Assembly (NCBI GenBank): GCA_963968885.1
Contig: CAXAGT010000003.1
Span: 431-64,430, forward strand
Length of the DNA: 64,000 nt
Source: an uncultured Candidatus Poseidoniales archaeon
GTDB taxonomy: Archaea; Thermoplasmatota; Poseidoniia; Poseidoniales; Poseidoniaceae
Direction: 5' to 3'
Under the pieces are notes generated by a model that was given only the letters and a program-made list of their open reading frames with translations, was not told where the DNA came from and made no database searches. Below are positions 5,155 to 64,000 of this stretch, piece by piece (the first letter of the stretch is position 1; each line of letters opens with the position of its first letter). The translations under genes were made by a program, and so were the position numbers.

Positions 5155-5299
5155 GTAACACCCACTAGAATGCACCGTTTAATATTGGTGTGTAAATCTA
5201 GCAAAATACCGTCATAGTCAGTTGGTTTGATTCAGAAATTCCTCCGTGGCTTTCATATAGGGGTTGAAAGTCGCCCACATGCTTCGATAAGGTGATAAT

Positions 5300-6543: not shown

Positions 6544-8751
6544 ATGGGCAGAAAAGAAGACAATATCAAGAAAGCAAGAGAAGTAATGCACGTCCTTCCA
6601 CAAATCAGGAACTTGTGTATCGCAGCTCACATCGACCACGGAAAGACAACACTATCAGACAACCTAATCGCAGGTGCTGGAATGATGTCCAGCGATCTTG
6701 CTGGTGCAGCACGTGTTTTGGACTTCGATGAACAAGAGTCAGCAAGAGGAATTACAATTAACGCAGCTTCTGCTTCGATGGTTCACCAACACGAAGAAAC
6801 AGATTATTTGATCAACCTGATCGATACTCCAGGTCACGTCGACTTTGGCGGTGACGTAACTCGTGCAATGAGAGCAGTTGACGGTTGTTTCATCCTTGCT
6901 TGTGCTGTTGAGGGTCCGATGCCTCAAACTGAGACTGTAGTTAGGCAAGCTCTGAAAGAGAAAGTAAAGCCTGTACTATTCATCAACAAAGTTGACAGAT
7001 TAATCAACGAGTTACAAGTAACTCCTGAGGATATGATGGAGAGATTCAAGGGAACAATTCAAAAGGTCAACAAACTAATCAGGCAATTCGCTCCTGAGCA
7101 ATACAAAAAAGAATGGCAAGTTGATGTTGGAAGCGGTACTGTAGCATTCGGTTCAGCATACCACAACTGGGGAATCACTGTTCCATACATGGCAAAGTCC
7201 GGAATTTCCTTCAAGCAGATTTTCGAATACTGTAACAACGAAGACCAAAAAACTCTAGCAGAAAAAGCTCCAGTCCATGAAGTACTTCTGGACATGGCTG
7301 TTACTAAACTACCAAGTCCAATCCAAGCTCAAGAATACAGAATTCCTAACATTTGGACTGGTGACCTAGAAAGTGTAACTGGACAAGCCATGCTAAAGTG
7401 CGACCCTGAGGGAGAATTAGCTATGATGATTACAAAGATTTGGATGGATCCTCACGCAGGAGAAGTTGCAGTAGGTAGACTATATTCAGGTGCAATCAAT
7501 CAAGGCGAAAGCGTCTACGCAATCGGTGCTGCAAAGCCAGAACGTGTTCAACAAGTTTCAATGATGGTCGGTCCAGACAGAATCACAGTACCTACAGTCG
7601 TTGCAGGTAACATTGCGGCGATAACAGGAATTCGTTCTGCTGCTGCTGGTGTTACTTTGTCAAGAGACAAGGACTTCACACCATTCGAAGCAATTAGGCA
7701 CTACTCTGACCCTGTTGTTACAGTTGCAGTCGAGCCTAAGAACATGAAAGACCTTCCTAAATTCATTGATGCTTTGAGATCATTAGCAAAGGCTGATGCA
7801 TCTCTACAAGTTACCACAAATCAAGAAACTGGTGAGGCTCTTCTAGCAGGAATGGGAGAATTGCACCTTGAGATTACTGTTTTCAGAATTGAAGAAGAAC
7901 AAAATATCCAAGTTAAGGTTTCTCCACCTATTGTCGTTTACAGAGAATCTATTGAAGGTAATAACCACGGTAGACCATTTGAAGGTAAATCGCCAAACAG
8001 ACACAACAGATTTTACATAGAAGTCGAACCACTAAGCCCAGAAGTTCTAAAGGGACTAAGAGAAGGTGTTTTCGGTGATGGTCCGGTTAGAGCAAAGGAA
8101 ACCAAAGAGATCGGTGACAGATTCGGAGAATACGGAATGGACAGAGACATGATGAGAAAAATCTATGCTATCAACGGTACCAATGTTCTAGTAAACGATA
8201 CCAAGGGTATCCAAGCACTTCACGAGACTCGTGAATTGATTATTGAAGCATTCAACGAAGTTTGCAAGAAGGGACCAGTTGCTGATGAGCCTATGATGGG
8301 TATGTTGGTTAGACTAGTTGATGCCAAACTCCACGAAGACGCTATCCACAGAGGACCTGCACAAACAATTCCAGCTGTAAGAAACGGTTTGAAAGGAGCT
8401 ATCCTCAGAGCAAGAGCAATTCTGAAAGAGCCTATGCAAAAAGCATTCATCTCTGTTCCTAATGACTGGCTAGGTCAAGTTACAAGAGAAGTAACAAACA
8501 GAAGAGGAATCATTGAGGATATGCCTAGTGAGGGTGATGTAACAACTGTAGTAGGAATTATTCCAGTTGGTGAAACATTCGGTTTCTCTAACGACATTAG
8601 AGCAGCATCTCAAGGACGTGCAGTCTGGAACACAGAAAACATGGGCTTCGAGAATTTACCTCCTCAATTATTCGACAAGGTCGTCGGAGATATCAGGACA
8701 AGAAAGGGTCTGAAGCCAGAACCAAATCCAGAATCTTACTATTCAGAGTGA
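6544..8751 (+). CDS. fusA: translation elongation factor 2 (aEF-2)
   Basis: GTPase motifs AHIDHGKTTLSD, DTPGHVDF and NKVDR, plus the diphthamide loop HEDAIHRGPAQ. 735 aa, downstream of S12-S7. Confidence 0.97.
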   Translation: MGRKEDNIKKAREVMHVLPQIRNLCIAAHIDHGKTTLSDNLIAGAGMMSSDLAGAARVLDFDEQESARGITINAASASMVHQHEETDYLINLIDTPGHVDFGGDVTRAMRAVDGCFILACAVEGPMPQTETVVRQALKEKVKPVLFINKVDRLINELQVTPEDMMERFKGTIQKVNKLIRQFAPEQYKKEWQVDVGSGTVAFGSAYHNWGITVPYMAKSGISFKQIFEYCNNEDQKTLAEKAPVHEVLLDMAVTKLPSPIQAQEYRIPNIWTGDLESVTGQAMLKCDPEGELAMMITKIWMDPHAGEVAVGRLYSGAINQGESVYAIGAAKPERVQQVSMMVGPDRITVPTVVAGNIAAITGIRSAAAGVTLSRDKDFTPFEAIRHYSDPVVTVAVEPKNMKDLPKFIDALRSLAKADASLQVTTNQETGEALLAGMGELHLEITVFRIEEEQNIQVKVSPPIVVYRESIEGNNHGRPFEGKSPNRHNRFYIEVEPLSPEVLKGLREGVFGDGPVRAKETKEIGDRFGEYGMDRDMMRKIYAINGTNVLVNDTKGIQALHETRELIIEAFNEVCKKGPVADEPMMGMLVRLVDAKLHEDAIHRGPAQTIPAVRNGLKGAILRARAILKEPMQKAFISVPNDWLGQVTREVTNRRGIIEDMPSEGDVTTVVGIIPVGETFGFSNDIRAASQGRAVWNTENMGFENLPPQLFDKVVGDIRTRKGLKPEPNPESYYSE

Positions 8752-8760
8752 GTTGATTAA

Positions 8761-9234
8761 TTGACGCTCCTGAGTAATCAGGTAGTAATCGGTTTATTCA
8801 GGTCTGAAAAAGGTGGTGCTCCAAAGCCATCAGTGGATTCTCTCCAAGTGAAATTTAATGGTTGCGTGGGAGATTATCAACGGGATAAGAAACACCATGG
8901 CGGTCCAAAGAGGGCCGTTTGCATTTTCTCTCAGGAGATAATTGCTAAACTACAGATCGAAGGGAACCCTATATCACCCGGAGATTGTGGCGAGAATATG
9001 GTTTTTTCAAATTTAGATTGGAATGTGATCTCTGAGGGTGTAGAGTTGCAAATTGGTGAAGTTCGATTGAGAATCGAATCGGATGCACCACCTTGCAAAA
9101 CCATTGCACATGCTTTCAAAGGAGGCAGATTCAAGCAAATTTCAGAAAAATATTCACCTGGGAATTCTAGATGGTATTGTAGTGTTTTACAGGAAGGAAC
9201 AATATCATTAAGTGATACTGTAAATATAATTTGA
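8761..9234 (+). CDS. MOSC-domain protein
   Basis: 157 aa with a YiiM-like pattern (GDYQRDKKHHGGPKRAVCIFS, GENMVFS, PCKTI). TTG start. Confidence 0.6.
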   Translation: MTLLSNQVVIGLFRSEKGGAPKPSVDSLQVKFNGCVGDYQRDKKHHGGPKRAVCIFSQEIIAKLQIEGNPISPGDCGENMVFSNLDWNVISEGVELQIGEVRLRIESDAPPCKTIAHAFKGGRFKQISEKYSPGNSRWYCSVLQEGTISLSDTVNII

Positions 9235-9313
9235 ACAGTTAACCATCCACCTTTCTTCAAAAATAGGGATATGGTCATAAGCCAGCGCAGTGACGGGATG
9301 TTAGGTGGAATAG

Positions 9314-9700
9314 ATGCCAGGTACAGACAGAGTTGAGATTCGAACATTAAAAGTTGGACGATACTGCGTTGTTGATGATGAAGCTTACAAGATTCTTAGC
9401 ATTTCAAAATCAAAACCAGGAAAACACGGATCTGCAAAAGCTAGGCTAGAACTTGTTTCACTATTTAGTAGTAAGAAAATCTCTCACGTCGGAACAGTTA
9501 CTGATTCGATCAACGTCCCTATGATTGAGAAAGGAACTGCTATGGTTACTCACTTAGAAGGAGCAGAAGTTCATGCTATGAACATGAGAGACCACTCCAT
9601 GATGATTCTGCCACTTGAAGATGGTTTGAGCATTGAGGCTGGTAAGGAGATCATGTGGATGGAAGCATTAGGCAGATACAAAATCATTAGAGACCACTGA
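9314..9700 (+). CDS. eif5a: translation initiation factor 5A (aIF5A)
   Basis: Hypusination loop SKSKPGKHGSAKA. 128 aa with an OB-fold C-terminal half. Confidence 0.9.
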   Translation: MPGTDRVEIRTLKVGRYCVVDDEAYKILSISKSKPGKHGSAKARLELVSLFSSKKISHVGTVTDSINVPMIEKGTAMVTHLEGAEVHAMNMRDHSMMILPLEDGLSIEAGKEIMWMEALGRYKIIRDH

Positions 9701-9706
9701 TTTTTT
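9701..9706 (+). terminator. oligo-T tract directly after the aIF5A stop (possible archaeal terminator)
   Basis: TGA is followed immediately by TTTTTT. Archaeal RNA polymerase terminates at oligo-T runs. Confidence 0.25.
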
Positions 9707-9782
9707 GAATCGGTTCTAAATATTCACATTTCCGATAAATATTCGGGGTTCATTTCATAAACTATCTTTATGATTAGATGTT

Positions 9783-11909
9783 ATGACTGAGAATGCTCAA
9801 GTCGATAACGACAGCATTGAACTAACTGCCAAACAACTCATTTCTTCAATGCCTGAGGAGGATCAAAAATCTCTACGCTCATGGTATTTCTTTGATTTTG
9901 CCAATCAAGCATTCGCACTAACTGTCCTTTCTGTAGTTGTGCCTGCACTTATTGCTAGTTTATTCGATTCTTCTACTGGAGGTGGAATGGATTTCCTTGG
10001 AGGGACATTGAAAGGTGACTCATTTTACTCGATAGTTCTTGCAATGTCTATGTTTATAGTTGCAATAACCTCTCCTGCGATTGGAGTAATAGCTGATAAA
10101 TCTCCAATCAAAAAGAAGTTGCTATACTGGTATACACTATTCGGTGTATTATTCACTGCAATGTTAGGATGCGCACCATTTTTTGGTAACTCAGCATACC
10201 AAATAATGGCTGTTTTCTTTGTAATTGCTAATATTGGATTTGCAGGAGGAAATACATTCTATTACGCATTTATGCCATACCTGGCTCCAAAGAAGGCGAT
10301 GGACCATGTATCTTCATGGGGATATGCTTACGGATTCCTCGGTGGATCGATTATGCTAATTGTCCACCTAGCGATTTTAGTTGGTCTCAGAGGTTTACTT
10401 GAGCCGAATCTAAGATATGCAATCGTATTTGTAACCGCAGCACTTTGGTGGTGGGGATGGTCACTACCATTGTTCAAGAACACTCCAGAACCAGAGGTTG
10501 AAGGTAAGTTAGAGGTCACAGGTTTCATGAATTTAGTCAAATTCTCCTACGGTCAGGTTTTCTCTACGTTCAAAGAAATAAAGAAATTCAAAGTTTTAGC
10601 TCTCTACTTGGTTGCCTACCTCTTATTCTATGATGGTGTAAATACGGTTAATGGAATAGCAAGTGCATTCGCTGAGACTGTTTTGCGGATTGATCCCGTC
10701 ATGAACATCGTCTTATTACTTACAGTTCAGATTGTTGCAGTTCCTATGTCTGTGGTGTTTGGTAAAATTGCCGATTCTAAAGGAACTAAATTCGCTTTGT
10801 TGCTTGCTCTAATTGGGTACAGTTTTGTAGCGGTTACCGCGGCTGGTTTTGCACCGCTTGAACTTGAACCAAACAACGAGGATGATCATAAGCGCTTTGA
10901 TTTCCATTATGAGTGGATAGAAAACGAACCTTTCACTGATTCAAACGATAACGGGGTTTGGGATTCTGGAGAAGATTATACAGATTACGATCAAGACGGT
11001 GCTTTCACCGATGAAGGACTTTATGTTTTGAATACATTATACGGGAGAGGCGTCGAAGGCTGGATTTCATTGGAAGGAGAAGGAGATGCTGAATTCAGGG
11101 ATGCCTTTGGAACATGGTTGATGCCGGAAGAGTCCGAAGAAGTTGGAGGTCTTGCAGGATCTGCGTTAAGCGGTTTCAAATCCTCATTTATTCTACTTGT
11201 TTGTTTTGGAGCTTTTGGTTTCATTATGCTAGCGATTTTTAGAATGAATCTGGGTAAGGTAGGAGTAGGACTTACTTTCCTAGTTGGAATACTAGCAATA
11301 GGTGCGTTCATTGGAGGCGGTATTGCAATGTTTGAAGATAATTCTACAGAGGATATGCCCAGAACAATGGATGCTGATGGAGCAGAAGAGATGGTTGCTG
11401 CATTTGAAGGGGTTGAGAATCACAGATTCTCTATCGTACTGACAGATGGTCCGCAAGCTAATGAATATGAGATTGGAAACGAGCATCCTACTATCCTCAA
11501 GCGAGGAGGTTTGCTAGATTGGTGGGCTGATGGATTACGAAATAACGTATGGGGTCCACTCGGACTTGGAATAAACATCCAGTGGATTTTCCTTGGTCTG
11601 GTTGTAGGCTGCGTAATGGGTGCTGCCGGTGCACAGGCTAGATCTATGTTTACAATGCTGATACCGAAAACCAGAACCACAGAATTCTTTGGCTTCTTTG
11701 GATTTATCGGCAAAGCCGCTGCAATGATAGGTCCACTATTGTACGCAGCCGCAGCGACATACTTTGATTCCCGTGTGGCTATTTTGACTATTGTGGTAGT
11801 CATCGTGTTAGGGACCTTCCTAACCGGAAAAGTAGACTTAGAGGAAGGTATACGAGTGGCAGAAGCGGAAGATGAGAAGAATCTAGCCGCCTCAGGGAAA
11901 GGTGATTGA
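9783..11909 (+). CDS. MFS transporter, UMF1/Atg22-like, with a large internal insertion
   Basis: N-terminal signature SWYFFDFANQAF and many TM helices. An acidic insertion of about 230 aa lies at roughly 10858-11560. Confidence 0.65.
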   Translation: MTENAQVDNDSIELTAKQLISSMPEEDQKSLRSWYFFDFANQAFALTVLSVVVPALIASLFDSSTGGGMDFLGGTLKGDSFYSIVLAMSMFIVAITSPAIGVIADKSPIKKKLLYWYTLFGVLFTAMLGCAPFFGNSAYQIMAVFFVIANIGFAGGNTFYYAFMPYLAPKKAMDHVSSWGYAYGFLGGSIMLIVHLAILVGLRGLLEPNLRYAIVFVTAALWWWGWSLPLFKNTPEPEVEGKLEVTGFMNLVKFSYGQVFSTFKEIKKFKVLALYLVAYLLFYDGVNTVNGIASAFAETVLRIDPVMNIVLLLTVQIVAVPMSVVFGKIADSKGTKFALLLALIGYSFVAVTAAGFAPLELEPNNEDDHKRFDFHYEWIENEPFTDSNDNGVWDSGEDYTDYDQDGAFTDEGLYVLNTLYGRGVEGWISLEGEGDAEFRDAFGTWLMPEESEEVGGLAGSALSGFKSSFILLVCFGAFGFIMLAIFRMNLGKVGVGLTFLVGILAIGAFIGGGIAMFEDNSTEDMPRTMDADGAEEMVAAFEGVENHRFSIVLTDGPQANEYEIGNEHPTILKRGGLLDWWADGLRNNVWGPLGLGINIQWIFLGLVVGCVMGAAGAQARSMFTMLIPKTRTTEFFGFFGFIGKAAAMIGPLLYAAAATYFDSRVAILTIVVVIVLGTFLTGKVDLEEGIRVAEAEDEKNLAASGKGD

Positions 11910-21125: not shown

Positions 21126-22151
21126 TCAGCGGTTAGCTAGTGTTAGGGAAGACCACATTTCTTCAGGTACTTCCATAGCCAATCTTAGACCGCCCATTGC
21201 ACCTAACCTTACAGGGTCATCTACAACGTGAACATTGACATCGCCCATGTCAGAAAGTTTCCTTTCTATCATTGCGCCTAGACCTCTTATTCCTGATCCA
21301 CCGCCAGCTAGAACCATGTTTCTTCTGAACTCATCGTGGAATTCTGGGTTAGATTCTGCAATTAATTTCTTGACGTTTTCAACAATTGGGTCAACGATTG
21401 ACTCGCAAGCATTTTGGATACAATCTGTAATGTCTAGATTCATTGACTTACCCTCGATGGAGAAGTCCACCATAATCGGCTCTTCTGGAGCAGCAGTTGA
21501 AACAAAGGAGTATTGTTCCTTCCATCTTCTAGCCATGTCCTTTGTGATTTGAGCACCATTGTATTTCTTTTGTACTTCTTCGATAATTTTTCTGTCAACA
21601 AAGTCTCCAGCATGCCCTGTGTGCATTTGATCGCCAGGTCCTGGAATTGTTCCGTAGACACGGCAAAGGTCAGCAGTTCCTGCACCGATATCGATAACCA
21701 GTGTGTGCTCAATCATATCCAAAGCGTATGCAACAGCAAACGGCTCTGAAATAATCATTGCAGCGTTAACTGATCCAGCCGCAGCATCAAAAATCGCAGT
21801 TTTGTCGACGTGACTTGCTTCTGCAGGTGCACCGATTACGGCAACAACACGGTCATATTCCTCAGGGTCGGATAATTCGATAAGATGTGTAATGAAGTGA
21901 GCAATAAATTGCCTGTCTTCTGGGGTGTCTTTTATCACACCAAGTTCCAAAGGTCTGAACAGGTTAAGTGCCAGTCTGTTTTTTAGTGCTTCATTTCCAA
22001 ACAAAACATCTCTCTTAAGGAAGTTTCTTGCTACAGGATCTTTTGGAGTTCCTATAACAGTTAGTTCTTCTTCTTCGTGTGAATCAGAAGATACCATTAC
22101 AGATCTAAAAGTTCCAAGGTCTATTCCAATGTATAATACATCATCAGCCAT
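21126..22151 (-). CDS. actin-fold ATPase, MamK/MreB-like
   Basis: Phosphate-1 motif IGIDLGT, phosphate-2 motif VIDIGAGTADL and adenosine motif LAGGGSGIRGL. Start set at MADDVLYIGIDLGT. Confidence 0.75.
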   Translation of the reverse strand: MADDVLYIGIDLGTFRSVMVSSDSHEEEELTVIGTPKDPVARNFLKRDVLFGNEALKNRLALNLFRPLELGVIKDTPEDRQFIAHFITHLIELSDPEEYDRVVAVIGAPAEASHVDKTAIFDAAAGSVNAAMIISEPFAVAYALDMIEHTLVIDIGAGTADLCRVYGTIPGPGDQMHTGHAGDFVDRKIIEEVQKKYNGAQITKDMARRWKEQYSFVSTAAPEEPIMVDFSIEGKSMNLDITDCIQNACESIVDPIVENVKKLIAESNPEFHDEFRRNMVLAGGGSGIRGLGAMIERKLSDMGDVNVHVVDDPVRLGAMGGLRLAMEVPEEMWSSLTLANR

Positions 22152-22278
22152 TTTCTCACCAGTCCTTGCACTTTGAACTCGTTTATGAACCATTACTATC
22201 AAAACTGTTGGAAAACCAAGTGTGAAAATAAAAGTAAATCATAAATTCATGGTTTTTATGAATTCTATAGAATATTGT

Positions 22279-27463: not shown

Positions 27464-29251
27464 ATGAACGGCCTAGTGTTGGAAGAATTGGTGAGAACAG
27501 TGTCTGGGTATGGGATAGATGATGTTCCAAGCGTCACTTTAAGTGACGAGCAGTCCAGTTTACTCAAAGGACAAGATTTAGCACAAGCACAACTAATGGC
27601 TGAAAAGGTAATTCTAGTTGATGAGTATGATAACGTGATTGGTTCTGATTCAAAAATTGACACTCACTATGATGTGGGAAAATTGCATCGTGCCTTCTCC
27701 GTCCTTCTATTCAATTCAGAAGGTAAGTTATTACTTCAAAGAAGAGCACTAGACAAGGTAACCTTTCCTGGTGTTTGGGCTAATACATGTTGCTCTCATC
27801 CTTTGGCTAGCGAAGAAGAAATGAATCCTGATGGTTACATCGGAACTAAAGTTGCCGCAGTTAGGAAAATGGAGCAAGAATTAGGTATTAGTCCATCTCA
27901 AATATCAACCGGTGATTTGCAATTTGTTACAAAAATGCTATACCAAGCAAGAATGAATCGTGAATGGATTGAAAGAGAATTGGATCATATTCTAGTTATC
28001 AGAGCTGATGTTGATTTAAATCCAAATCCAAATGAAGTTTCTGAAGTAAAATGGGTAAATGCAGAAGAGTTACGAGACATGATAAGTCAACAAACTGAAG
28101 ATACTGGATATGTCGCTCCTTGGTTTAGATGCATTGCAGAAGATATCATGACTGCCGATTGGTGGGAGGCTGGTTCAACAGGTTCTGGGTTTGAAAAATT
28201 AGTTGATGGTAAAATCCATGACATGGGGGATGTGACTTTCCTTCTTCCAAATGCTGAACCTGCAAGTTACAAGACCTCATTGTTGGAAGTTATGCCGGCA
28301 GTAGAAAAAAGGATTGAAACCTCTCTCAGAAACACAAGTCACAAAAGATTGTCTGATGCTATGATGCATTTGATTGATGGCGGAGGTAAAAGAATGCGAG
28401 CAAGTCTTCCTTGGCTAGTTGCTAACGCGACTGGGAGATCACATTCCGGAATTATCGATGTGGGATCTGTAATCGAAATTATTCACAACTTTACTTTGGT
28501 TCATGACGATATAATGGATGATGATGACATAAGGAGAGGAAGAAATGCTGTTCACATAGAATATGATATGCCCACAGCAATCAATGCAGGAGATGCTATG
28601 CTAGCAATTGCCTTTGAGACTCTTTATGATGCAAAGAATATTTCAACAGAAGATACTGTTACAATTTTCAAGAAAATAGCATGGATGGTTCGCAGAGTAA
28701 GCGAAGGTCAACAATTAGATATAGAATTCGAGGATAGAGAAATTGTAGAAGAGGATGAGTATATCGAGATGATTCTAGGTAAAACCTCTGTCATGTTTAT
28801 CATCTGTGCGGAAATTGGTGCTTTCCTTTCTGGGTCAAATCAAGAGGTCGTTGATATGATGGCAAAATGGGGAGAAAATACAGGTATCTGTTTCCAACTT
28901 ATGGACGATATAATTGACATCATGTCATCGACTGAGGAATTAGGTAAGCCAGCAGGATCTGATATCGTACAAGGAAAAAAGACATTGATGGCTATCCACG
29001 CATTAAGACAACCAGACTCTCCAGCAAAACAAGCATTCTTGGCAGCATACAACAAAGGGGACGATTGTCCAAAAGAAATTAGAGATGCGGCTCATGATGC
29101 CTTACATGAATTAGGTTCAGTTGAATATGCAAAACAACGTGCAGTTGAATACCACTCTGCTGCACACGATATCTTGAATCAACTACCACATAGACCTGGT
29201 TTGGCTGTTCTGAGAGAATTAACCGATATTCAACTAAAAAGAATGGTTTGA
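27464..29251 (+). CDS. fusion of type-1 IPP isomerase (Nudix-type IDI) and geranylgeranyl diphosphate synthase
   Basis: N-terminal half has LHRAFSVLLFN..FPGVWANTCCSHPL. C-terminal half has the FARM motif LVHDDIMDDDDIRRGR and the SARM motif FQLMDDIID. Confidence 0.85.
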   Translation: MNGLVLEELVRTVSGYGIDDVPSVTLSDEQSSLLKGQDLAQAQLMAEKVILVDEYDNVIGSDSKIDTHYDVGKLHRAFSVLLFNSEGKLLLQRRALDKVTFPGVWANTCCSHPLASEEEMNPDGYIGTKVAAVRKMEQELGISPSQISTGDLQFVTKMLYQARMNREWIERELDHILVIRADVDLNPNPNEVSEVKWVNAEELRDMISQQTEDTGYVAPWFRCIAEDIMTADWWEAGSTGSGFEKLVDGKIHDMGDVTFLLPNAEPASYKTSLLEVMPAVEKRIETSLRNTSHKRLSDAMMHLIDGGGKRMRASLPWLVANATGRSHSGIIDVGSVIEIIHNFTLVHDDIMDDDDIRRGRNAVHIEYDMPTAINAGDAMLAIAFETLYDAKNISTEDTVTIFKKIAWMVRRVSEGQQLDIEFEDREIVEEDEYIEMILGKTSVMFIICAEIGAFLSGSNQEVVDMMAKWGENTGICFQLMDDIIDIMSSTEELGKPAGSDIVQGKKTLMAIHALRQPDSPAKQAFLAAYNKGDDCPKEIRDAAHDALHELGSVEYAKQRAVEYHSAAHDILNQLPHRPGLAVLRELTDIQLKRMV

Positions 29252-44461: not shown

Positions 44462-45514
44462 TCACAACTTTAAATCGGGAATATCAGGTGCTCTAAAAGG
44501 AGTCACTCCTCTTTTTCTTGTTGCGGTTTTGTACATGTCAGGAATAAATCTCTTGAATATAAAATTGAAAACTACTTTCACTGATTTTATTGGTTTTCTT
44601 ATCCCTTTAAATGGGTTTCCAAGTCCCTTAATGGGCATCAAAAATTGCTGAACTATGTTATCTGGAACTTCTTGATCAATGCCGTATGTATGAGGTCTCT
44701 CTTTAGGCATGTAATATGTCCCAAAGATGATGTCCCAAATCGGCAAGAAAGTAGAATAATTAGTCCAGATTGCTTCTCTGTGATTTGAATGATGCCAGTG
44801 GTGGAAATCTGGAGTCATAATTATTGGATGTAATATTCTCAATCGGATGTTGACATTTGCGTGCAGGAATAATCCTAGAATAACTTGAACCACCACTATT
44901 GCTCCAGTCAAAGTTGGGTCAAAACCAGCTGCAACTAGGAAGAAAAAGGCTGGAGCAATCAGTGAACCATCAAAGGGATGGGCTCTGAATCCGCTAACCC
45001 AATCAAGATGCTCTGTTGAATGGTGAATTGCATGAAATGGCCACAAATATTCAATTTCATGATAAAATCTGTGAGTCCAATAAACTAGGAAATCAAATAG
45101 AAGGACACTAGTCCACAACATCTGAGTTGGATATTTTTCAATTAACTGAGTGATATATGGGTTGATTAGTAATCCTGGTATCCATGCTAAACTCAAAATT
45201 CCTATTGCGATTGTGAATGCACCACCAATGGCTGCCATTGCTGGAGCAGCTAATGCGTAATTTATGTCTAAACGCCAGTGTTTTCTCCTAACAGGTTGTC
45301 CTTTGTGCCTAGGAAATATTTTTTCCAAAGGTACTACTAGGATAAATAGAACAATCAAACTGGTTAGAGGACCAAATGACTCCATCATAAAGGATAAACC
45401 AATCAGTGATACAGCGATGATTCTAACAAACCACTTCAGCAACCAATGCATTGATTTAGTTTCAATATCATCCTTTTCCCTCAAAGGAGATACAGTGCCA
45501 ATTAGTTCTTCCAT
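44462..45514 (-). CDS. fatty acid hydroxylase / sterol desaturase superfamily membrane di-iron enzyme
   Basis: Histidine boxes HRFYHE, HAIHHS and HHWHH, with 4-5 TM helices. Confidence 0.75.
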   Translation of the reverse strand: MEELIGTVSPLREKDDIETKSMHWLLKWFVRIIAVSLIGLSFMMESFGPLTSLIVLFILVVPLEKIFPRHKGQPVRRKHWRLDINYALAAPAMAAIGGAFTIAIGILSLAWIPGLLINPYITQLIEKYPTQMLWTSVLLFDFLVYWTHRFYHEIEYLWPFHAIHHSTEHLDWVSGFRAHPFDGSLIAPAFFFLVAAGFDPTLTGAIVVVQVILGLFLHANVNIRLRILHPIIMTPDFHHWHHSNHREAIWTNYSTFLPIWDIIFGTYYMPKERPHTYGIDQEVPDNIVQQFLMPIKGLGNPFKGIRKPIKSVKVVFNFIFKRFIPDMYKTATRKRGVTPFRAPDIPDLKL

Positions 45515-58227: not shown

Positions 58228-59436
58228 ATGCAAGAGTGGTCTAGCGAGTTGAAATCCGCTGGTATTAACCCCGACTGGAGAAATATTCTTGCTGCTAGTG
58301 TCAATTCTCAGACCTGGTCAGCAGAAATATCTCCTATCGCTAGAAAAGTTGCCGAATCGATACCATTGAGTATGGAAGACGGCATTACCCTTTACTCTCA
58401 TCACAACCTAAACGAGGTAGGAAAGTTAGCAGGTTTAGCTAAATCAAGCAGGTATGGAGATTTTGCCTTTTTCAATTCTAACGTTCACATCAATCCAACA
58501 AATATTTGTGTGCTTGCGTGCAGGTTTTGTGCTTTCAGAAGAGGAAAAAAGGCAGAAGATGCATATGAATTTGGACCAGATGTATACGCAGAAGAGCTCT
58601 CTAAATTTGCAGATCATGTTGATGAGGTGCATACCGTAGGTGGTTTGCACCCAGAATGGAAAATCGAGGATTACGAAAAAATGTTCTCCTCTGCAAAGGA
58701 AAGATTCCCACATGTTATGATTAAAGCTCTTACAGCAGTCGAAATCAAGCACATTTCTAAAAAATCTGATTTATCTGTAAGGGAGACACTTCTGAGGCTT
58801 TCAAAAGCAGGACTCGATTCTCTACCTGGTGGAGGTGCTGAGATATTAGACGATGAGGTAAGAGATAAGATTTGTAGAGGAAAAGAAACCTCAAAAGAGT
58901 ACTTGGATATCCACAAAACAGCCCATGAGTTAGGAATACCAACAAATTGCACAATGCTTTTTGGAACCGTAGAAACTTTAGAGCAAAGAATTCAGCATAT
59001 GATTGACTTAAGAGAACTCGCAAGAGAAACGAATGGTTTCCAATGCTTCGTACCTTATCCGTTCCTGCCAGATGATTCTAGATTGCCCGAAGCACAATTG
59101 GCAACTGGTTCTGAAATAATTAGAACTATAGCCATATCTAGGTTGATGATTGACACAATCCCTCACATCAAGGCATATAGAATGAACATTGGAGATAACC
59201 TGGCTGAACTTGCTTTGCAATACGGTGCAGATGATATCGATGGAACGGTTCAACAGGAATTGATTATGCACTTGGCAGGCTCGAGTACGCCTTTAGACCT
59301 CGACAGGAATAGACTTTCAAGACTAATAGAAGACGCTGGATGTAAGCCAGTAATTAGGAATACAACCTACACAAAATTTAGAGAATTTGTGCCCAAGAAA
59401 ATTATTCCACCCCGCAGGCTGAAAATGTCGAGTTGA
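58228..59436 (+). CDS. radical SAM enzyme of the MqnE/MqnC (CofH-like) family, probably aminofutalosine synthase
   Basis: CVLACRFCAF (Cx3Cx2C). About 400 aa, directly upstream of the MqnA-like gene. Confidence 0.7.
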   Translation: MQEWSSELKSAGINPDWRNILAASVNSQTWSAEISPIARKVAESIPLSMEDGITLYSHHNLNEVGKLAGLAKSSRYGDFAFFNSNVHINPTNICVLACRFCAFRRGKKAEDAYEFGPDVYAEELSKFADHVDEVHTVGGLHPEWKIEDYEKMFSSAKERFPHVMIKALTAVEIKHISKKSDLSVRETLLRLSKAGLDSLPGGGAEILDDEVRDKICRGKETSKEYLDIHKTAHELGIPTNCTMLFGTVETLEQRIQHMIDLRELARETNGFQCFVPYPFLPDDSRLPEAQLATGSEIIRTIAISRLMIDTIPHIKAYRMNIGDNLAELALQYGADDIDGTVQQELIMHLAGSSTPLDLDRNRLSRLIEDAGCKPVIRNTTYTKFREFVPKKIIPPRRLKMSS

Positions 59437-59440
59437 TTTA

Positions 59441-60229
59441 ATGGCTATTTGGAAAAAGACCATTGGAAGAGTTGCTTTCATAAATTGTGATCCTCTTTTC
59501 TTTGGCTTAGATGAGTCGTGGAACGTTCTTTCCTCTCCCCCTTCCTGGCTTACAAAGCATGTCCTCAACAAGGATTGCGTTATTGCGCCTATTCCTACAG
59601 CCGGTTACGCTATGAATCACGAAGAACTTGTACTGATCCCTGACATAGGAATCTGCTCTAATGGTGAAGTTGGCTCCGTCATTGTATTTGGTGAGAAAGA
59701 AATTAATGATATGAGTTCAATTGCCATGCCTTCAGATTCTTCATCAAGCGTCAATTTATTGCGATGGTGGCTTAAAGAAAACGGACTGAGCCCTGCGGAA
59801 GTAACAATGGGGCCGCATCTAGAGAATATGCTTGATAGATGTGATGGTGCATTATTGATTGGAGATAGAGCATTACAATCCGCTAGGGATAATGCTGAGT
59901 TAGTCAAACTAGATCTCGGAAAAGCTTGGCAAGATTCCACAGGTAAACCTATGGTGTTCGGTGTTTTTGTAGCCCGGAAAGATACACCATTGAGTGATTT
60001 AAAACGTGCCCATAAGGCATTACTCAAACAGTTACAACTCTTTGAATCAAATAATGATGTTAAACAAGATGTTGTCCAAAATGCTAGTGCTCATTCCAAC
60101 CTAAGTAATCAGAGGCTAAGCGATTATTTCAACGAAGTTTTCAACAGATTAGACGATGCCCATGTTGAAGGGTTAGAGCATTATTTGAGATTGGTATTTG
60201 GAATAGAAAGTATTGAATTCGCTTGGTAG
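59441..60229 (+). CDS. mqnA: chorismate dehydratase MqnA-like (VitK2 biosynthesis PBP-fold)
   Basis: VAFINCDPLFFGL N-terminus, PSWLTKHVLNKDCVIAPIP, and GEVGSVIVFG. Confidence 0.7.
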   Translation: MAIWKKTIGRVAFINCDPLFFGLDESWNVLSSPPSWLTKHVLNKDCVIAPIPTAGYAMNHEELVLIPDIGICSNGEVGSVIVFGEKEINDMSSIAMPSDSSSSVNLLRWWLKENGLSPAEVTMGPHLENMLDRCDGALLIGDRALQSARDNAELVKLDLGKAWQDSTGKPMVFGVFVARKDTPLSDLKRAHKALLKQLQLFESNNDVKQDVVQNASAHSNLSNQRLSDYFNEVFNRLDDAHVEGLEHYLRLVFGIESIEFAW

Positions 60230-62641
60230 TCATTCTTCTTCATCTATTTTTGAAGTTAATTTTTCCAAAGCTTGGTCCATTTCATCTTCTTGCTTTGATA
60301 CTTTTCTAACACGCCTAGTTTTTGGTTTAACCTCTAGATTTTCTGTTTTGACAGTTCTTTTCCTTATCTTTGTCTGTTCAAGGTTCTCGGCTGATCTATG
60401 CTCTGATTTTAGTTTGCGCTTTTTTGTTTTTGTAGTAGTTCCTACACTACTCTCTTCCGAAATATTTGTAGTCACCTTCTTGCGTCTTGTTCTTACTGTT
60501 GGTTGTTGGGAATTAGAGTCTAAACTTGTTGACGGTTTGGTAAATTCTTTCTTTCTAACAACTCTTTTTCTCCTTTCATTAGGTTCGGTACTTTCCGATT
60601 TATTTTCTTGAATTTTTTCATCTGCATAGTCTGTCTGTGGATCTGAGGCATTGTCGATATCATAATCCTCCATGTCATCATCATAATCTTCGATGTTGGA
60701 ATCAAGTAAAATTTCGTCTTCAATATCTTCTTCATCAAATATTGAATCTAGATTTAAATTAGTCTCGTTATACTTTCTCATTGAAAAAATTGCTAAAATG
60801 ACAAGGATTGCATTTGGGATCAAAAAAAGGATTGGATACTCCATGAAAGAGTTAAACATTTTTTCAATGAATGTTTTTTCTTCGATTACTTCTGCATTAA
60901 GAGTGAAATCTGCCATTAAATCGGATATCCAAAACGGACTAAGAGAATCCTGAACAACTAAATCTCCATCAATTTGGATTGCCATTGGAGAGATTGCTAA
61001 CACGTGAATTATAGATCCATCTTGAGCAGGAGGGTGCCCTGTAATTGTGAATTCTGCTGGAAATTGTGGAACTGAAGTGTAATTAAAACTGGACTTGAAA
61101 TTTATTACTATACTAGTTTGATAGTCATCAACTGCTATTAGTTTCATTCCATCGGTTACGCTACAATCCGTGTTGTTTGAAACCAAATCAGTACTGCTCA
61201 ATTCCATCATTTCTATCCAGGTTTCTGCATATCCCTGAGCATCTAAGTTAGAGCAAATCGAGTTCTCAAACAAAGTAAATTCGCTTTGTTCGATAATTTT
61301 GTTTGAGACTACTGCTTTTCTTGAAATATTTCTAATATCAGATGAAAGTCTAGAATCGACGGTAAATGTCTCTACTAATACTAACTCAGTTTTGTTGAAG
61401 AAAAATTGAACATTACGAATCGTATCTTCATTTGGAATTTTTGCACATGTTTCATCTTGTGCTGGGCAATTAAAGTCCCACTGATCTATAATTCCATCTC
61501 CATCGTCATCTTCATCATGGGAATCAGGAATTCCGTCTCCATCTAAATCTGCTCCAGGTAATCCATAATTTTCGTCTTGCATTGGGACGCTCCAATAACC
61601 TACTTCTTGAGAATCAGTTGCTATGAAAATTTGACTGATTTTTCCTGATTGATCTTCAATCACCACAAAATCACGCATATTCGAGAAAGTTGAGGTACTA
61701 GTGATTATTGAAAAATCATCGGCTCTTAATTCTAAGATTTTCTTTTCATTCTGCCCATTAACAAGCATTCGTATATTCTCTCCATTTTCCGACCAATCAA
61801 ATTTCTCAGCAGAATCTAATTGCAAAGACCTAGAATTAGATCCGTCTTTTTCTAAAACGTATAGTTTGCCGGTTGATGTTAAAATTCCAATCTCATCAGA
61901 TTGAGGATTAAATTCACAATGGATTACACCAGATTCTAGGTCAAAAAAGTAATTTGTCGCTGTAAATGAATCGTCCCAAAATCTGACGACGCCCAAATCG
62001 TCTCCGGTGACTACATATTCTGAGTTAGCACATATTGTGGTAACGGGTGACTCATGAACATCTGACAATGTGAAACGGTCATCTAAAGCAACGCTTTCCA
62101 TTGCTTTAGCACCTTGATTTCCATCTGCAATTATCACGTATTGGCTATTATTAAACCATGATATTGATCGAGGGTTACTACTTACATTGAATGTATTAAT
62201 TAACTGAATTTCACTTGATTTATAATCCCAAATATACAAACCTATACTCGCATTTCCTATGTTATTTACAGAAAAAGCTATTCTTTCATCATCATCAGAG
62301 AATTTTATGTCAAGAATTGGTGCATTAACCTCGATAATGGAGTGAGTGGAATGGTTTGATTGATAGATTACAGATGCGTAATTTCTGTAACCAATTGCTA
62401 TTAATTCTCCATCCTTACTCACATCCAGACTTTCTGACCTTATCACATCCTCTGATGAGGATATTCCACCAGTGAATATGAGATTTGTTGACTCAGAACT
62501 AACTCCTGATGAACAAATAATTAAGGTGGTAAATAATGCTAGAAATAATCGATTTCCAGTAACAAATTTGGTACCGCTACAATCCATGAAAGGATGATGC
62601 AGTCGCCGCATTAACTCGCCCCCATAATGCCATAAACACAT
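60230..62641 (-). CDS. large surface protein with a beta-propeller-like ectodomain, a Ca-binding D-rich motif, one TM helix and a charged cytoplasmic tail
   Basis: Signal/anchor LFLALFTTLIICSSG. Repeated beta-strand blades. DLDGDGIPDSHDEDDDGDGIIDQWD. TM helix ILFLIPNAILVILAIF. The tail is acidic and then K/R-rich. The start may be an internal Met (62611 or 62587). Confidence 0.55.
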   Translation of the reverse strand: MCLWHYGGELMRRLHHPFMDCSGTKFVTGNRLFLALFTTLIICSSGVSSESTNLIFTGGISSSEDVIRSESLDVSKDGELIAIGYRNYASVIYQSNHSTHSIIEVNAPILDIKFSDDDERIAFSVNNIGNASIGLYIWDYKSSEIQLINTFNVSSNPRSISWFNNSQYVIIADGNQGAKAMESVALDDRFTLSDVHESPVTTICANSEYVVTGDDLGVVRFWDDSFTATNYFFDLESGVIHCEFNPQSDEIGILTSTGKLYVLEKDGSNSRSLQLDSAEKFDWSENGENIRMLVNGQNEKKILELRADDFSIITSTSTFSNMRDFVVIEDQSGKISQIFIATDSQEVGYWSVPMQDENYGLPGADLDGDGIPDSHDEDDDGDGIIDQWDFNCPAQDETCAKIPNEDTIRNVQFFFNKTELVLVETFTVDSRLSSDIRNISRKAVVSNKIIEQSEFTLFENSICSNLDAQGYAETWIEMMELSSTDLVSNNTDCSVTDGMKLIAVDDYQTSIVINFKSSFNYTSVPQFPAEFTITGHPPAQDGSIIHVLAISPMAIQIDGDLVVQDSLSPFWISDLMADFTLNAEVIEEKTFIEKMFNSFMEYPILFLIPNAILVILAIFSMRKYNETNLNLDSIFDEEDIEDEILLDSNIEDYDDDMEDYDIDNASDPQTDYADEKIQENKSESTEPNERRKRVVRKKEFTKPSTSLDSNSQQPTVRTRRKKVTTNISEESSVGTTTKTKKRKLKSEHRSAENLEQTKIRKRTVKTENLEVKPKTRRVRKVSKQEDEMDQALEKLTSKIDEEE

Positions 62642-62734: not shown

Positions 62735-63619
62735 ATGGCAGAGCCACTACCAGTTAACGAAAACGGAGATAAGATTGTCAGAATTGGTCATTCTCCGGAT
62801 CCAGATGACGCATTTATGTTCCACGCAATGACTACTGGCGCCTTTCCAACTCCAGGATACCACTTCGTTCATGAGTTGCAAGACATTGAAACTTTGAATC
62901 ACAGGGCAATGAATTGTGAGCTAGAAGTATCCGCAGTATCTATCCACGCATACCCTGAAATAATGAAGGATTATTCTTTGATGAATTGTGGAGCCTCGAT
63001 GGGTGAAGGGTATGGACCAATGATTGTAACAAAATCAGGAGTAACAGAAGAAGAAGCAAAAAACAACGTTATTGCTGTTCCTGGATTAAAAACCAGTGCC
63101 TACCTTGGTCTAAGGCTTGCTTGGGGCGATGTAGATGTAGAAGTCGTGCCTTTTGATGAAATTATACCAAGGATTTTGGATGGTTCATACCTTTCTGGAC
63201 TCATTATTCACGAGGGGCAATTAACTTACGTTGATCATAACTTGGATGTAATAATAGATTTAGGTGTATGGTGGAACGAAAGAACCGGTGGTTGGCCAAT
63301 GCCACTTGGAGGTAACGTCGTCAGGAGAGATTTAGGTGATGATGATATGCTTGCTATAACTAAATACACAAAAATGTCAATCGAACATGCTATTAAAAAT
63401 CCAGACGATGCATTAGAATTTGCAAAAGCGTGGGGTAGAGGAATAGATGACGATACAAACAAAAAATTTGTTGGAATGTATGTAAACGACAGAACCATAG
63501 ATTACAGACAAGACGGTAGGGATTCTATTAGAAGGTTCTTAAGAGAAGGACAGGATATTGGATTAGTACCAGAAACTTTTGATGTTAAATCTATACAGTT
63601 CATCGGTTCGGATGAGTAA
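62735..63619 (+). CDS. mqnD: 1,4-dihydroxy-6-naphthoate synthase MqnD-like
   Basis: RIGHSPDPDDAFMFHAM, DIETLN, VSAVSIHAY and GASMGEGYGPMIV parallel remembered MqnD motifs (SPCPNDTF, DIE.LN). Confidence 0.7.
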   Translation: MAEPLPVNENGDKIVRIGHSPDPDDAFMFHAMTTGAFPTPGYHFVHELQDIETLNHRAMNCELEVSAVSIHAYPEIMKDYSLMNCGASMGEGYGPMIVTKSGVTEEEAKNNVIAVPGLKTSAYLGLRLAWGDVDVEVVPFDEIIPRILDGSYLSGLIIHEGQLTYVDHNLDVIIDLGVWWNERTGGWPMPLGGNVVRRDLGDDDMLAITKYTKMSIEHAIKNPDDALEFAKAWGRGIDDDTNKKFVGMYVNDRTIDYRQDGRDSIRRFLREGQDIGLVPETFDVKSIQFIGSDE

Positions 63620-63620
63620 C

Positions 63621-64000
63621 ATGAATTCCAATCGAGCTCCAGTCCCTAGTCAGTATGGCTCAGTTGATCCTGCACCACCGACTATGGATGGTAAAATAGC
63701 TACATGGAGAGATACTTTATTGGATGAAGATCAAAAAATGTTTCAGAGAATGCGTGTGGTTTTTTCTTTAAGAAATGAGCGCTCTGACCAAGCAGTATTG
63801 ACTTTGTGTGAAGGTTTTTCGGCAAGCAGTGCATTACTTCGTCACGAACTCGCATATGTCTTGGGTCAAATGCAAAACCCGGCTGCTTTACCCTCATTGA
63901 TTGATAGATTGCAAGACGAAGACGAACATGTCATGGTCAGGCATGAGGCAGCAGAAGCAATGGGGGCAATAGGGGATTTGAGCGTAATTCCTATTTTGAG
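63621..64000 (+). CDS. deoxyhypusine hydroxylase-like HEAT-repeat protein (5' partial, runs off the window)
   Basis: I translated 126 codons from the ATG at 63621 to the window edge and found no stop. The ORF is absent from the ORF track because it is unterminated. HE motifs: SALLRHELAYVLGQMQ and VMVRHEAAEAMGAIGD. Confidence 0.7.
   Translation, partial: MNSNRAPVPSQYGSVDPAPPTMDGKIATWRDTLLDEDQKMFQRMRVVFSLRNERSDQAVLTLCEGFSASSALLRHELAYVLGQMQNPAALPSLIDRLQDEDEHVMVRHEAAEAMGAIGDLSVIPIL

What the first reader, a model, noticed from the sequence alone, without database searches (positions are those of the whole stretch)
63621..64000. Eukaryote-like deoxyhypusine hydroxylase (DOHH) homolog in an archaeon
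An unterminated ORF at the window edge encodes ...SALLRHELAYVLGQMQNPAALPSLIDRLQDEDEHVMVRHEAAEAMGAIGD... From memory this is nearly collinear with human DOHH (SALLKHELAYCLGQMQD..AIP.L..VLQD....PMVRHEAGEALGAIGD), including the His-Glu pairs that bind the di-iron centre.

As I recall the literature, DOHH homologs are generally reported as absent from archaea, and the archaeal hydroxylating enzyme is unidentified. The substrate aIF5A, with its KPGKHG loop, is encoded in this same window (9314..9700).
Basis: partly seen in the sequence, partly recalled or inferred. Interest (0 to 1): 0.65.

Follow-up and report, generated by a model that had tools for sequence, protein, structure and literature searches.

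The report
Half-size deoxyhypusine hydroxylase in marine archaea
The open reading frame at the window edge is a genuine, strongly conserved relative of the eukaryotic enzyme that completes the hypusine modification of translation factor 5A, but in these Marine Group II archaea it is only half the eukaryotic protein and probably has to pair with itself to work, which matters because no such enzyme has been reported in any archaeon.

Summary
An ORF starts at 63612 (or 63621) and runs off the window end. It matches human deoxyhypusine hydroxylase (DOHH, PDB 4d4z) at E=6e-54, and it matches both halves of that protein.

The interpretation needs one large correction. Full-length relatives are only about 160 aa (89% and 80% identical, on syntenic contigs). 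They have one four-HEAT domain and two His-Glu motifs, not eight HEAT repeats and four motifs.

- **Distribution:** 388 species-level genomes encode a relative, and the best 80 loci listed are Poseidoniales-type. Named protein hits place the gene in both families, Poseidoniaceae and Thalassarchaeaceae.
- **Context:** it always lies directly after an MqnD-like gene.
- **Selection:** dN/dS is 0.04.
- **Conserved residues:** the metal-ligand and substrate-contact residues of DOHH are invariant.
- **Not a generic HEAT protein:** generic HEAT or PBS-lyase segments score 20-35 bits against the core, and lyase models score 18-25 bits against the whole protein; DOHH half-profiles score about 155 bits.

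The best reading is a homodimeric DOHH that rebuilds the di-iron site at the subunit interface and hydroxylates deoxyhypusine on aIF5A, which is encoded at 9314..9700. Dimerisation, iron binding and activity are inferred, not shown.

The archaeal protein is equidistant from the N- and C-halves of eukaryotic DOHH. That argues against a recent transfer of a C-half and fits a form close to the duplication. I found no paper describing it; only JGI's automatic annotation names it. I rate it a new variant of a known kind.

The parts
63612..64000 (+). 5' part (129 of about 160 codons) of the half-size DOHH-family gene. The alternative start is ATG 63621. The gene is cut by the window end.
   Evidence: Translation. 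Human DOHH 4d4z at E=6e-54. Full-length relatives of 159-174 aa, 80-89% identical. dN/dS 0.04.
63660..63680 (+). N-terminal arm motif SVDPAPP. It is invariant in the archaeal family and equivalent to the inter-domain linker motif of two-domain DOHH.
   Evidence: Invariant in 40 relatives. Aligns to human 'SVDPAPP' at residues 148-154. [VIL]DP[AS]P is in the linker of 73 of 102 two-domain DOHHs. The arm has low confidence in the monomer model.
63843..63848 (+). First His-Glu motif (H78-E79, within RHELAYVLGQ), followed by G85. These correspond to human H56/E57/G63 and H207/E208/G214.
   Evidence: Residue roles are from PMC9117371.
63942..63947 (+). Second His-Glu motif (H111-E112, within MVRHEAAEA), 33 residues after the first. 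It corresponds to human H89/E90 and H240/E241.
   Evidence: The 33-residue spacing matches both halves of 102 two-domain DOHHs.
62735..63619 (+). MqnD-like gene (VitK2_biosynth, futalosine pathway). Its stop overlaps the DOHH-like start, and it is a conserved operon partner.
   Evidence: Pfam PF02621 on the syntenic product. Adjacent in 81 of 81 loci, and also in the rearranged L085/L086 loci whose protein cluster includes Thalassarchaeaceae-named members.
9314..9700 (+). aIF5A, the presumed protein substrate. The hypusine-site lysine is K37 in the KPGKHG loop (9413..9430).
   Evidence: Translation. Best PDB match is M. jannaschii aIF5A 1eif at E=1e-23. Coordinates.

Best explanation
The ORF encodes a single-domain, four-HEAT-repeat member of the deoxyhypusine hydroxylase family, about 160 aa when complete. 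It is vertically conserved in Marine Group II archaea (Poseidoniales).

Each chain carries one set of the residues that either half of eukaryotic DOHH contributes to the active site. These are two His-Glu motifs 33 residues apart, plus the conserved Gly.

The most likely mechanism has three steps:
1. Two identical chains pack face to face. They reproduce the two-layer sandwich of the eukaryotic enzyme with a true two-fold axis.
2. H78, H111 and E112 of each chain hold one iron of a di-iron centre. E79 and G85 of both chains line the pocket for the deoxyhypusine side chain.
3. The O2-activated di-iron centre hydroxylates deoxyhypusine on Lys37 of aIF5A to give hypusine.

Shown here: family membership by sequence and fold, the half-size architecture, conservation of the catalytic and substrate-contact residues, single-locus conservation across the order, purifying selection, and presence of the substrate gene.

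Inferred: homodimerisation, iron binding, O2 chemistry and the aIF5A substrate.
For: - **Sequence:** human DOHH is the top PDB hit at E=6e-54 and matches on both halves. The best non-repetitive hits among 1.84 billion representatives are about 300-aa two-domain DOHHs at 42-51% identity. Wherever a source name exists they are eukaryotic: Cucumis, Phytophthora, Chrysophaeum, a crustacean, EukProt, MMETSP.
- **Fold:** the AF2 monomer has pLDDT 88.7 and eight helices, which is four HEAT repeats. The Foldseek top hit is 4d4z at E=4e-10 and 48% identity. Designed alphaRep HEAT proteins follow at 1e-5 or weaker.
- **Catalytic residues:** H78, E79, G85, H111 and E112 are invariant in 40 relatives. They correspond to the human residues shown by mutagenesis to bind iron or substrate (PMC9117371).
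- **Architecture:** all close relatives are 157-177 aa. The flanking genes are an MqnD-like gene upstream and a 67-aa ORF plus primase downstream, so no second HEAT half is adjacent.
- **Symmetry-compatible sequence:** the archaeal core scores 154 bits on a profile of eukaryotic N-halves and 156 bits on a profile of C-halves. C-halves score 126 on the N profile and N-halves score 115 on the C profile. One chain can therefore plausibly play both roles.
- **Selection and breadth:** dN/dS is 0.04. 388 species-level genomes encode a relative, and the listed loci are Poseidoniales-type. Named protein hits place it in both families of the order.
- **Substrate and pathway:** aIF5A is in the window. 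A deoxyhypusine-synthase homologue (SpeY) is reported in MGII MAGs (PMC10407285). DHS is reported in all archaeal genomes (PMC5178350).
Against: - No dimer could be modelled.
- No experimental data exist on metal content or activity.
- The only conserved gene linkage is to a menaquinone-pathway gene, not to aIF5A or DHS. aIF5A lies 54 kb away, and DHS was not found among the 40 window ORFs scanned.
- The C-terminal 30-35 residues of this particular copy were not seen.
- A divergent second HEAT partner elsewhere in the genome was not excluded.
- Whether MGII aIF5A carries hypusine rather than deoxyhypusine is unknown.
Confidence: 0.6

Rival explanations
1. It is a DOHH-derived iron oxygenase that has been recruited to another substrate, for example a step connected with menaquinone (futalosine-pathway) biosynthesis. 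This is suggested because it is translationally coupled to an MqnD-like gene.
For: The MqnD-like gene followed by the half-DOHH gene is adjacent in 81 of 81 loci. The pair stays together in L085/L086, where the rest of the neighbourhood is rearranged. The stop and start overlap in ATGAGTAA. MqnE-like, MqnA-like and UbiD-family genes are nearby.
Against: To my knowledge, the known futalosine pathway needs no O2-dependent hydroxylation. The protein keeps about 47% identity to eukaryotic DOHH halves, and 55 of 118 core consensus positions are identical in N-halves, C-halves and the archaeal protein. These include the residues that bind the deoxyhypusine chain. That is hard to reconcile with a change of substrate. 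Operon neighbours in compact archaeal genomes are often functionally unrelated; here a DNA primase gene lies a few hundred bases downstream.
Confidence: 0.12
2. It works only as a heterodimer with a second, more divergent four-HEAT protein encoded elsewhere. That would mimic the N/C asymmetry of the eukaryotic enzyme.
For: Eukaryotic DOHH is asymmetric, with N- and C-halves only about 39% identical. Only about 10 kb around the gene was inspected in relatives. The genome scan used two peptide patterns that a divergent paralogue could escape.
Against: Among the top 150 representatives the only half-size clusters are the two Poseidoniales ones. The 2.06-Mb MG-II chromosome CM001443 appears once among the listed loci. 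The protein fits N- and C-half profiles equally well, as expected of a self-pairing subunit.
Confidence: 0.1
3. It is an ordinary non-catalytic HEAT or PBS-lyase-type repeat protein, or a decaying fragment of a gene acquired from a eukaryote, with no hydroxylase function.
For: Pfam sees only HEAT_2 and HEAT_PBS. NCBI names relatives 'HEAT repeat domain-containing protein', 'PBS lyase' or 'hypothetical protein'. The protein is half the length of a functional DOHH.
Against: - Generic HEAT_PBS segments score 20-35 bits against the core and lack HE motifs.
- NblB, CpcE and CpeY models score 18-25 bits against cut-offs of 300-600.
- DOHH half-profiles score about 155 bits.
- dN/dS is 0.04.
- There are invariant catalytic residues and fixed synteny across an order.
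- NCBIfam gave no DOHH match, only weak lyase-family hits, which probably explains the bland NCBI names.
Confidence: 0.04

Closest known systems
Eukaryotic deoxyhypusine hydroxylase (DOHH / Lia1 / nero; EC 1.14.99.29; human structure PDB 4d4z)
   Same: It has the same HEAT-repeat fold. It has the same HE-x31-HE pair with Gly seven residues after the first His. The SVDPAPP motif, the FxLRN motif and the C-terminal ESCxVALD helix are also shared. Identity to either half is 44-47%. The presumed substrate, (a/e)IF5A, is conserved and encoded in the window.
   Different: It is one four-HEAT domain of about 160 aa, not two domains of about 300 aa. It has two HE motifs per chain, not four. The active site must therefore form between two chains, not within one. 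It is found in an archaeal order, whereas the literature reports DOHH as absent from archaea. It sits in an operon with a menaquinone-pathway gene.
Phycobilisome lyase / NblB-type HEAT_PBS proteins and generic bacterial or archaeal HEAT-repeat proteins (COG1413)
   Same: They share the PBS-type HEAT repeat unit (Pfam PF03130, PF13646).
   Different: They have no His-Glu motifs, and similarity is only 18-35 bits. The window protein is far closer to DOHH.
The unidentified hydroxylase that makes hypusine in Crenarchaeota such as Sulfolobus
   Same: It would catalyse the same reaction on aIF5A in an archaeon.
   Different: No DOHH-like protein has been found in those organisms (PMC6105217). In the searches done here the family was seen only in Poseidoniales. 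This gene therefore does not identify that enzyme.

Membership tests
Deoxyhypusine hydroxylase (DOHH) family | Specific sequence similarity to DOHH, well above generic HEAT-repeat proteins | tested here: met
   4d4z at E=6e-54. About 155 bits on N-half and C-half profiles, against 20-35 bits for generic HEAT segments on the core and 18-25 bits for lyase models on the whole protein.
Deoxyhypusine hydroxylase (DOHH) family | All-helical HEAT-repeat fold matching the solved DOHH structure | tested here: met
   The AF2 model has pLDDT 88.7 and eight helices. The Foldseek top hit is 4d4z at E=4e-10, TM (query-normalised) 0.78.
Deoxyhypusine hydroxylase (DOHH) family | Eight HEAT repeats in one polypeptide, arranged as two four-repeat domains | tested here: not met
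   Full-length relatives are 157-177 aa with four repeats. No second half is adjacent.
Deoxyhypusine hydroxylase (DOHH) family | [quoted passage not shown] | tested here: not met
   There are two per chain (H78-E79, H111-E112), with the canonical 33-residue spacing, and they are invariant. Four would exist only in a dimer.
Deoxyhypusine hydroxylase (DOHH) family | Residues implicated in binding the deoxyhypusine side chain (Glu of each HE motif; Gly63/Gly214 equivalents) | tested here: met
   E79, E112 and G85 are invariant in 40 relatives. Roles are from PMC9117371.
Deoxyhypusine hydroxylase (DOHH) family | Two Fe per holoenzyme and a peroxo-diiron(III) intermediate | not testable with these tools
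   This needs purified protein (ICP-MS, UV-vis, Moessbauer).
Deoxyhypusine hydroxylase (DOHH) family | Hydroxylation of deoxyhypusine on (a/e)IF5A | not testable with these tools
   The substrate gene is present. Activity was not assayed.
Phycobilin lyase / NblB HEAT_PBS proteins | Score above the curated cut-off of the CpcE, CpeY or NblB models | tested here: not met
   18-25 bits against cut-offs of 300-600.

The most novel reading that the evidence does not exclude
The Poseidoniales protein preserves the pre-duplication form of DOHH, a four-HEAT subunit that builds the di-iron site as a homodimer. The eight-HEAT eukaryotic enzyme would have arisen by tandem duplication and fusion of such a gene. 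The gene would have passed between an archaeal lineage and the eukaryotic stem before LECA. Marine Group II archaea would then make true hypusine with a canonical DOHH-type enzyme, contrary to the textbook statement that archaea lack DOHH.
Probability: 0.35. Interest if true: 0.8.

Novelty: new variant of a known kind. Interest (0 to 1): 0.62.

Why it matters
- **A gap in the literature.** Hypusine is an essential modification found on only one protein. The field has repeated for about 20 years that archaea have deoxyhypusine synthase but no DOHH. Here one of the most abundant archaeal groups of the surface ocean carries a clear DOHH-family gene.
- **A natural split version of a pseudo-symmetric enzyme.** The half-size form offers a direct test of how a catalytic di-iron site emerged at the interface of a protein-binding repeat module, and of whether the eukaryotic enzyme arose by duplication and fusion.
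- **A minimal system.** It gives a 160-aa protein for studying the unusually stable peroxo-diiron intermediate.
- **An annotation fix.** NCBI records name these proteins 'HEAT repeat protein', 'PBS lyase' or 'hypothetical protein'.

Tried and rejected
- **Recovering the rest of this copy.** Exact 50-mer searches from the window end in genome contigs and metagenome contigs found nothing. The full length is therefore inferred from syntenic relatives at 89% and 80% identity.
- **Modelling the dimer.** Model coordinates are not exposed, so no manual docking onto 4d4z was possible.
- **NJ tree of N-halves, C-halves and archaeal sequences.** The archaeal clade sits near the base of the C-half clade, but the N | C+archaeal split has only 10% bootstrap support. 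The few C-halves grouped with it are a plant, a stramenopile alga and an MMETSP protist. I treat this as unresolved and not as evidence for a donor.
- **Outgroup rooting.** Generic HEAT_PBS segments are too distant (20-35 bits, no HE motifs), so I abandoned it.
- **A remnant of the SVDPAPP arm at the N-terminus of eukaryotic DOHH.** It was found in only 1 of 102, so it gives no support either way.
- **DHS in the window.** None was found among the 40 ORFs scanned with Pfam.
- **Viral carriers.** None were found in IMG/VR.
- **tRNA and Rfam scans.** Only tRNA-Gln was found, which is unrelated.
- **Literature.** No paper links DOHH with Marine Group II, Poseidoniales or Asgard archaea.

Full report
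**Observation.** The + strand from 63612 to the window end is one open frame of 129 codons.

- The first ATG (63612) overlaps the TAA stop of the upstream gene within ATGAGTAA. This overlap is conserved in two related contigs.
- phmmer against all PDB sequences gives human DOHH (4d4z) at E=6.3e-54. Designed alphaRep HEAT proteins follow many orders of magnitude behind.
- The match is double. Query 9-122 aligns to the C-terminal half of the human enzyme, including its 'SVDPAPP' linker (102 bits). Query 33-129 aligns to the N-terminal half (81 bits).
- Pfam sees only HEAT_2 and HEAT_PBS.
- The aIF5A gene at 9314..9700 is real. It has the loop SKSKPGKHGSAKA, and its best PDB match is Methanocaldococcus aIF5A at E=1e-23.

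**What the complete protein looks like.** Exact-match searches did not recover the missing 3' end. A search of 5.8 billion proteins did return over 1,100 relatives.

- The best 120 relatives are all 125-177 aa. The closest are 89% (P0001) and 80% (P0003) identical.
- Their contigs are syntenic with the window: OPT transporter, P-type ATPase, MqnE-like radical SAM, MqnA-like, a WD40 protein, MqnD-like, then this gene. A 67-aa ORF and the small primase subunit follow.
- The gene ends about 33 codons beyond the window edge. There is no second HEAT half nearby.
- An alignment of 40 relatives shows these invariant elements: S-V-D-P-A-P, MF.RMR, RN, SALLRHE.AYVLGQMQ, EH.MVRHEAAEA.GAIG and E..ESC.VA.DLL.
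- AlphaFold2 on this alignment gives a confident model (pLDDT 88.7) of eight helices, which is four HEAT repeats. The N-terminal arm of about 27 residues is poorly ordered.
- The best structural match in the PDB is 4d4z (E=4e-10, 48% identity).

The protein is therefore one half of a eukaryotic DOHH. It has four HEAT repeats and two His-Glu motifs (H78-E79, H111-E112) spaced 33 residues apart. That is the same spacing as in each half of 102 two-domain DOHHs examined.

**Who has it.**
- A scan of one genome per GTDB species found 388 genomes encoding a relative. The best 80 loci carry the conserved Poseidoniales gene order. Their records are titled Poseidoniales, Poseidoniaceae, Poseidonia, or older 'Euryarchaeota' / 'Methanobacteriota' MAG names. 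They include the 2012 MG-II chromosome CM001443.
- A more divergent cluster (P0209, 58% identical) includes proteins named Candidatus Thalassarchaeaceae. Both families of the order therefore carry the gene.
- The order MqnD-like, half-DOHH, 67-aa ORF, primase holds in 81 of 81 loci (80 of 81 for the two downstream genes). In L085/L086, whose protein belongs to the cluster that contains Thalassarchaeaceae-named members, the neighbourhood is rearranged but the MqnD-like/half-DOHH pair stays together.
- dN/dS between the window and its closest relative is 0.04.
- No copy was found on viral contigs.
- An exhaustive HMMER search of 1.84 billion cluster representatives gives 428 hits below 1e-30. 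Apart from giant multi-repeat proteins, the best are about 300-aa proteins with four HE motifs at 42-51% identity. Every one that carries a source name is eukaryotic: cucumber, Phytophthora, Chrysophaeum, an amphipod, EukProt and MMETSP entries. The only half-size clusters in the top 150 are the two Poseidoniales ones.

**Is it DOHH or just HEAT?**
- Profiles built from eukaryotic N-halves and C-halves score the archaeal core at 154 and 156 bits.
- The best four-repeat segments of generic HEAT_PBS proteins reach 20-35 bits against the archaeal core and have no HE motifs.
- NCBIfam models for NblB, CpcE and CpeY reach 18-25 bits against cut-offs of 300-600. No DOHH model matched there. That probably explains why NCBI names these proteins 'HEAT repeat domain-containing protein', 'PBS lyase' or 'hypothetical', while JGI's pipeline calls them 'deoxyhypusine monooxygenase'.
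- In the human enzyme, H56, H89, E90, H207, H240 and E241 anchor the two irons. E57, E90, E208, E241 and two glycines bind the deoxyhypusine chain (PMC9117371).
- The archaeal protein keeps the full half-set (H78, E79, G85, H111, E112), and it is invariant.

**Mechanism proposed.** In eukaryotic DOHH the active site is sandwiched between the two four-repeat layers (PMC9040561). A four-repeat chain that has every ligand one layer contributes, and that fits N-half and C-half profiles equally well, most simply works as a homodimer. In that dimer, two chains would supply four His and two Glu to a di-iron centre on a true two-fold axis. The O2-activated centre would hydroxylate deoxyhypusine on K37 of aIF5A.

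The invariant SVDPAPP arm is the covalent linker in eukaryotes. It is disordered in the monomer model and probably packs against the partner subunit.

MGII are, to my knowledge, aerobic surface-ocean organisms, which suits an O2-dependent enzyme. A DHS-family gene (SpeY, clustered with an arginine decarboxylase and agmatinase) has been described in MGII MAGs (PMC10407285). DHS is reported in all archaeal genomes (PMC5178350).

Dimerisation, iron binding and activity are inferences.

**Rivals.**
- *Another substrate.* The one conserved linkage is to an MqnD-like menaquinone-pathway gene, so recruitment to another substrate cannot be dismissed. To my knowledge, that pathway has no known O2-dependent hydroxylation. 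Retention of the substrate-contact residues and of 55 of 118 core consensus positions shared with both eukaryotic halves argues for the same substrate.
- *A heterodimer with a divergent partner.* This is not excluded, but no candidate appeared.
- *A non-catalytic HEAT scaffold or a decaying fragment.* The scores, the invariant ligands and the dN/dS value contradict this.

**Origin.**
- On 118 core columns, the archaeal sequences average 43.8% identity to N-halves and 47.3% to C-halves. N- and C-halves are 39.3% identical to each other.
- Using group consensus sequences, the archaeal consensus agrees with N against C at 16 columns and with C against N at 15. N and C agree against it at 13.
- The three-way branch lengths are N 0.30, C 0.32 and archaeal 0.26. 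The C branch is above zero in all 1,000 bootstraps.
- A post-LECA transfer of a C-terminal half would predict a C branch near zero and few N-like states, so that scenario is disfavoured.
- The lineage separated close to the N/C duplication itself. This fits a pre-duplication, homodimeric form. It also fits a transfer from a stem eukaryote at about that time.
- A neighbour-joining tree places the archaeal clade near the base of the C-halves with negligible support, next to a taxonomically scattered set of eukaryotes. Generic HEAT outgroups are too distant to root the tree. The direction of transfer therefore remains open.
- The shared arm and C-terminal helix are C-half-like. Only 1 of 102 eukaryotic proteins has a DPAP motif in its N-terminal leader.
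- The aIF5A is ordinary archaeal, at about 37 bits to eukaryotic eIF5A. The DOHH-like gene is thus much closer to eukaryotes than its substrate is, which points to an inter-domain transfer and not strict vertical descent.

**Comparison with what is known, and novelty.** Two experimental papers on archaeal aIF5A state that no DOHH orthologue has been found in any archaeal genome (PMC5178350, PMC6105217). Full-text searches found no paper linking DOHH with Marine Group II, Poseidoniales or Asgard archaea. Only an automatic JGI label anticipates the assignment.

By sequence, fold and catalytic residues the protein belongs with DOHH. It fails two defining features of the described enzyme, eight repeats and four HE motifs in one chain. 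I therefore file it as a new variant of a known kind: a half-size, presumably homodimeric DOHH. It does not identify the hydroxylase of hypusine-containing Crenarchaeota, which lack this family.

**Verdict.** My confidence that it is a DOHH-family four-HEAT protein is about 0.95. My confidence that it acts as a homodimeric deoxyhypusine hydroxylase on aIF5A is about 0.6. Interest is 0.62.

Noticed in passing
L004:10556-10759 (just beyond the window end; equivalent positions in L005-L084): A 67-aa ORF (MPHDHIQLAQSPSGEIGPRCHTCGIRLTFGNAMVLDKYYLCWEHY...) with a CxxC...CWEH pattern follows the half-DOHH gene in 80 of 81 loci, at 61-78% identity to the L004 copy in the other loci. It has no Pfam or NCBIfam match and looks like a small zinc-ribbon-like protein of unknown function.
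   Followed up: partly
window 60230..62641 (-): An 803-aa protein sits on the opposite strand between the MqnA-like and MqnD-like genes, splitting the futalosine gene set. It has weak WD40/beta-propeller matches, a predicted membrane segment and a long acidic then lysine-rich C-terminal tail. It is conserved at only 24-48% identity in relatives.
   Followed up: partly
window 58228..60229 (+), 62735..63619 (+), 3883..5175 (-): Futalosine-route menaquinone genes are present: MqnE-like radical SAM (406 bits, just under the 434.55-bit equivalog cut-off), two VitK2_biosynth paralogues (MqnA-like and MqnD-like) and a UbiD-family decarboxylase. NCBIfam has no hit for either VitK2_biosynth paralogue.
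   Followed up: partly
window 21126..22202 (-): An MreB/Mbl-family actin-like protein is encoded in this archaeal window. It also matches the Salactin family.
   Followed up: no
window 44462..45514 (-): A membrane fatty-acid-hydroxylase-family protein resembles the ornithine-lipid hydroxylase OlsE (102 bits, below cut-off). It is a second putative iron-dependent hydroxylase in the window.
   Followed up: no
window 6544..11909 (+): aIF5A sits in a run of aEF-2 (6544..8751), a MOSC-domain protein (8761..9234), aIF5A (9314..9700) and an ATG22-like MFS transporter (9783..11909). No deoxyhypusine synthase is adjacent.
   Followed up: partly
L081 (CAXQWT010000082.1) and L036/L084 (NYZH01000044.1, NYZH01000071.1): A MAG titled Salipiger bermudensis (a bacterium) carries a typical Poseidoniales MqnD-like/half-DOHH/ORF67/primase locus, so the bin is probably contaminated or mislabelled. 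Isolate ARS60 has two different copies of the locus on two contigs, which suggests a mixed-strain bin and not paralogy.
   Followed up: no
window 27464..29251 (+): A 595-aa ORF fuses a NUDIX domain to a polyprenyl synthetase domain.
   Followed up: no
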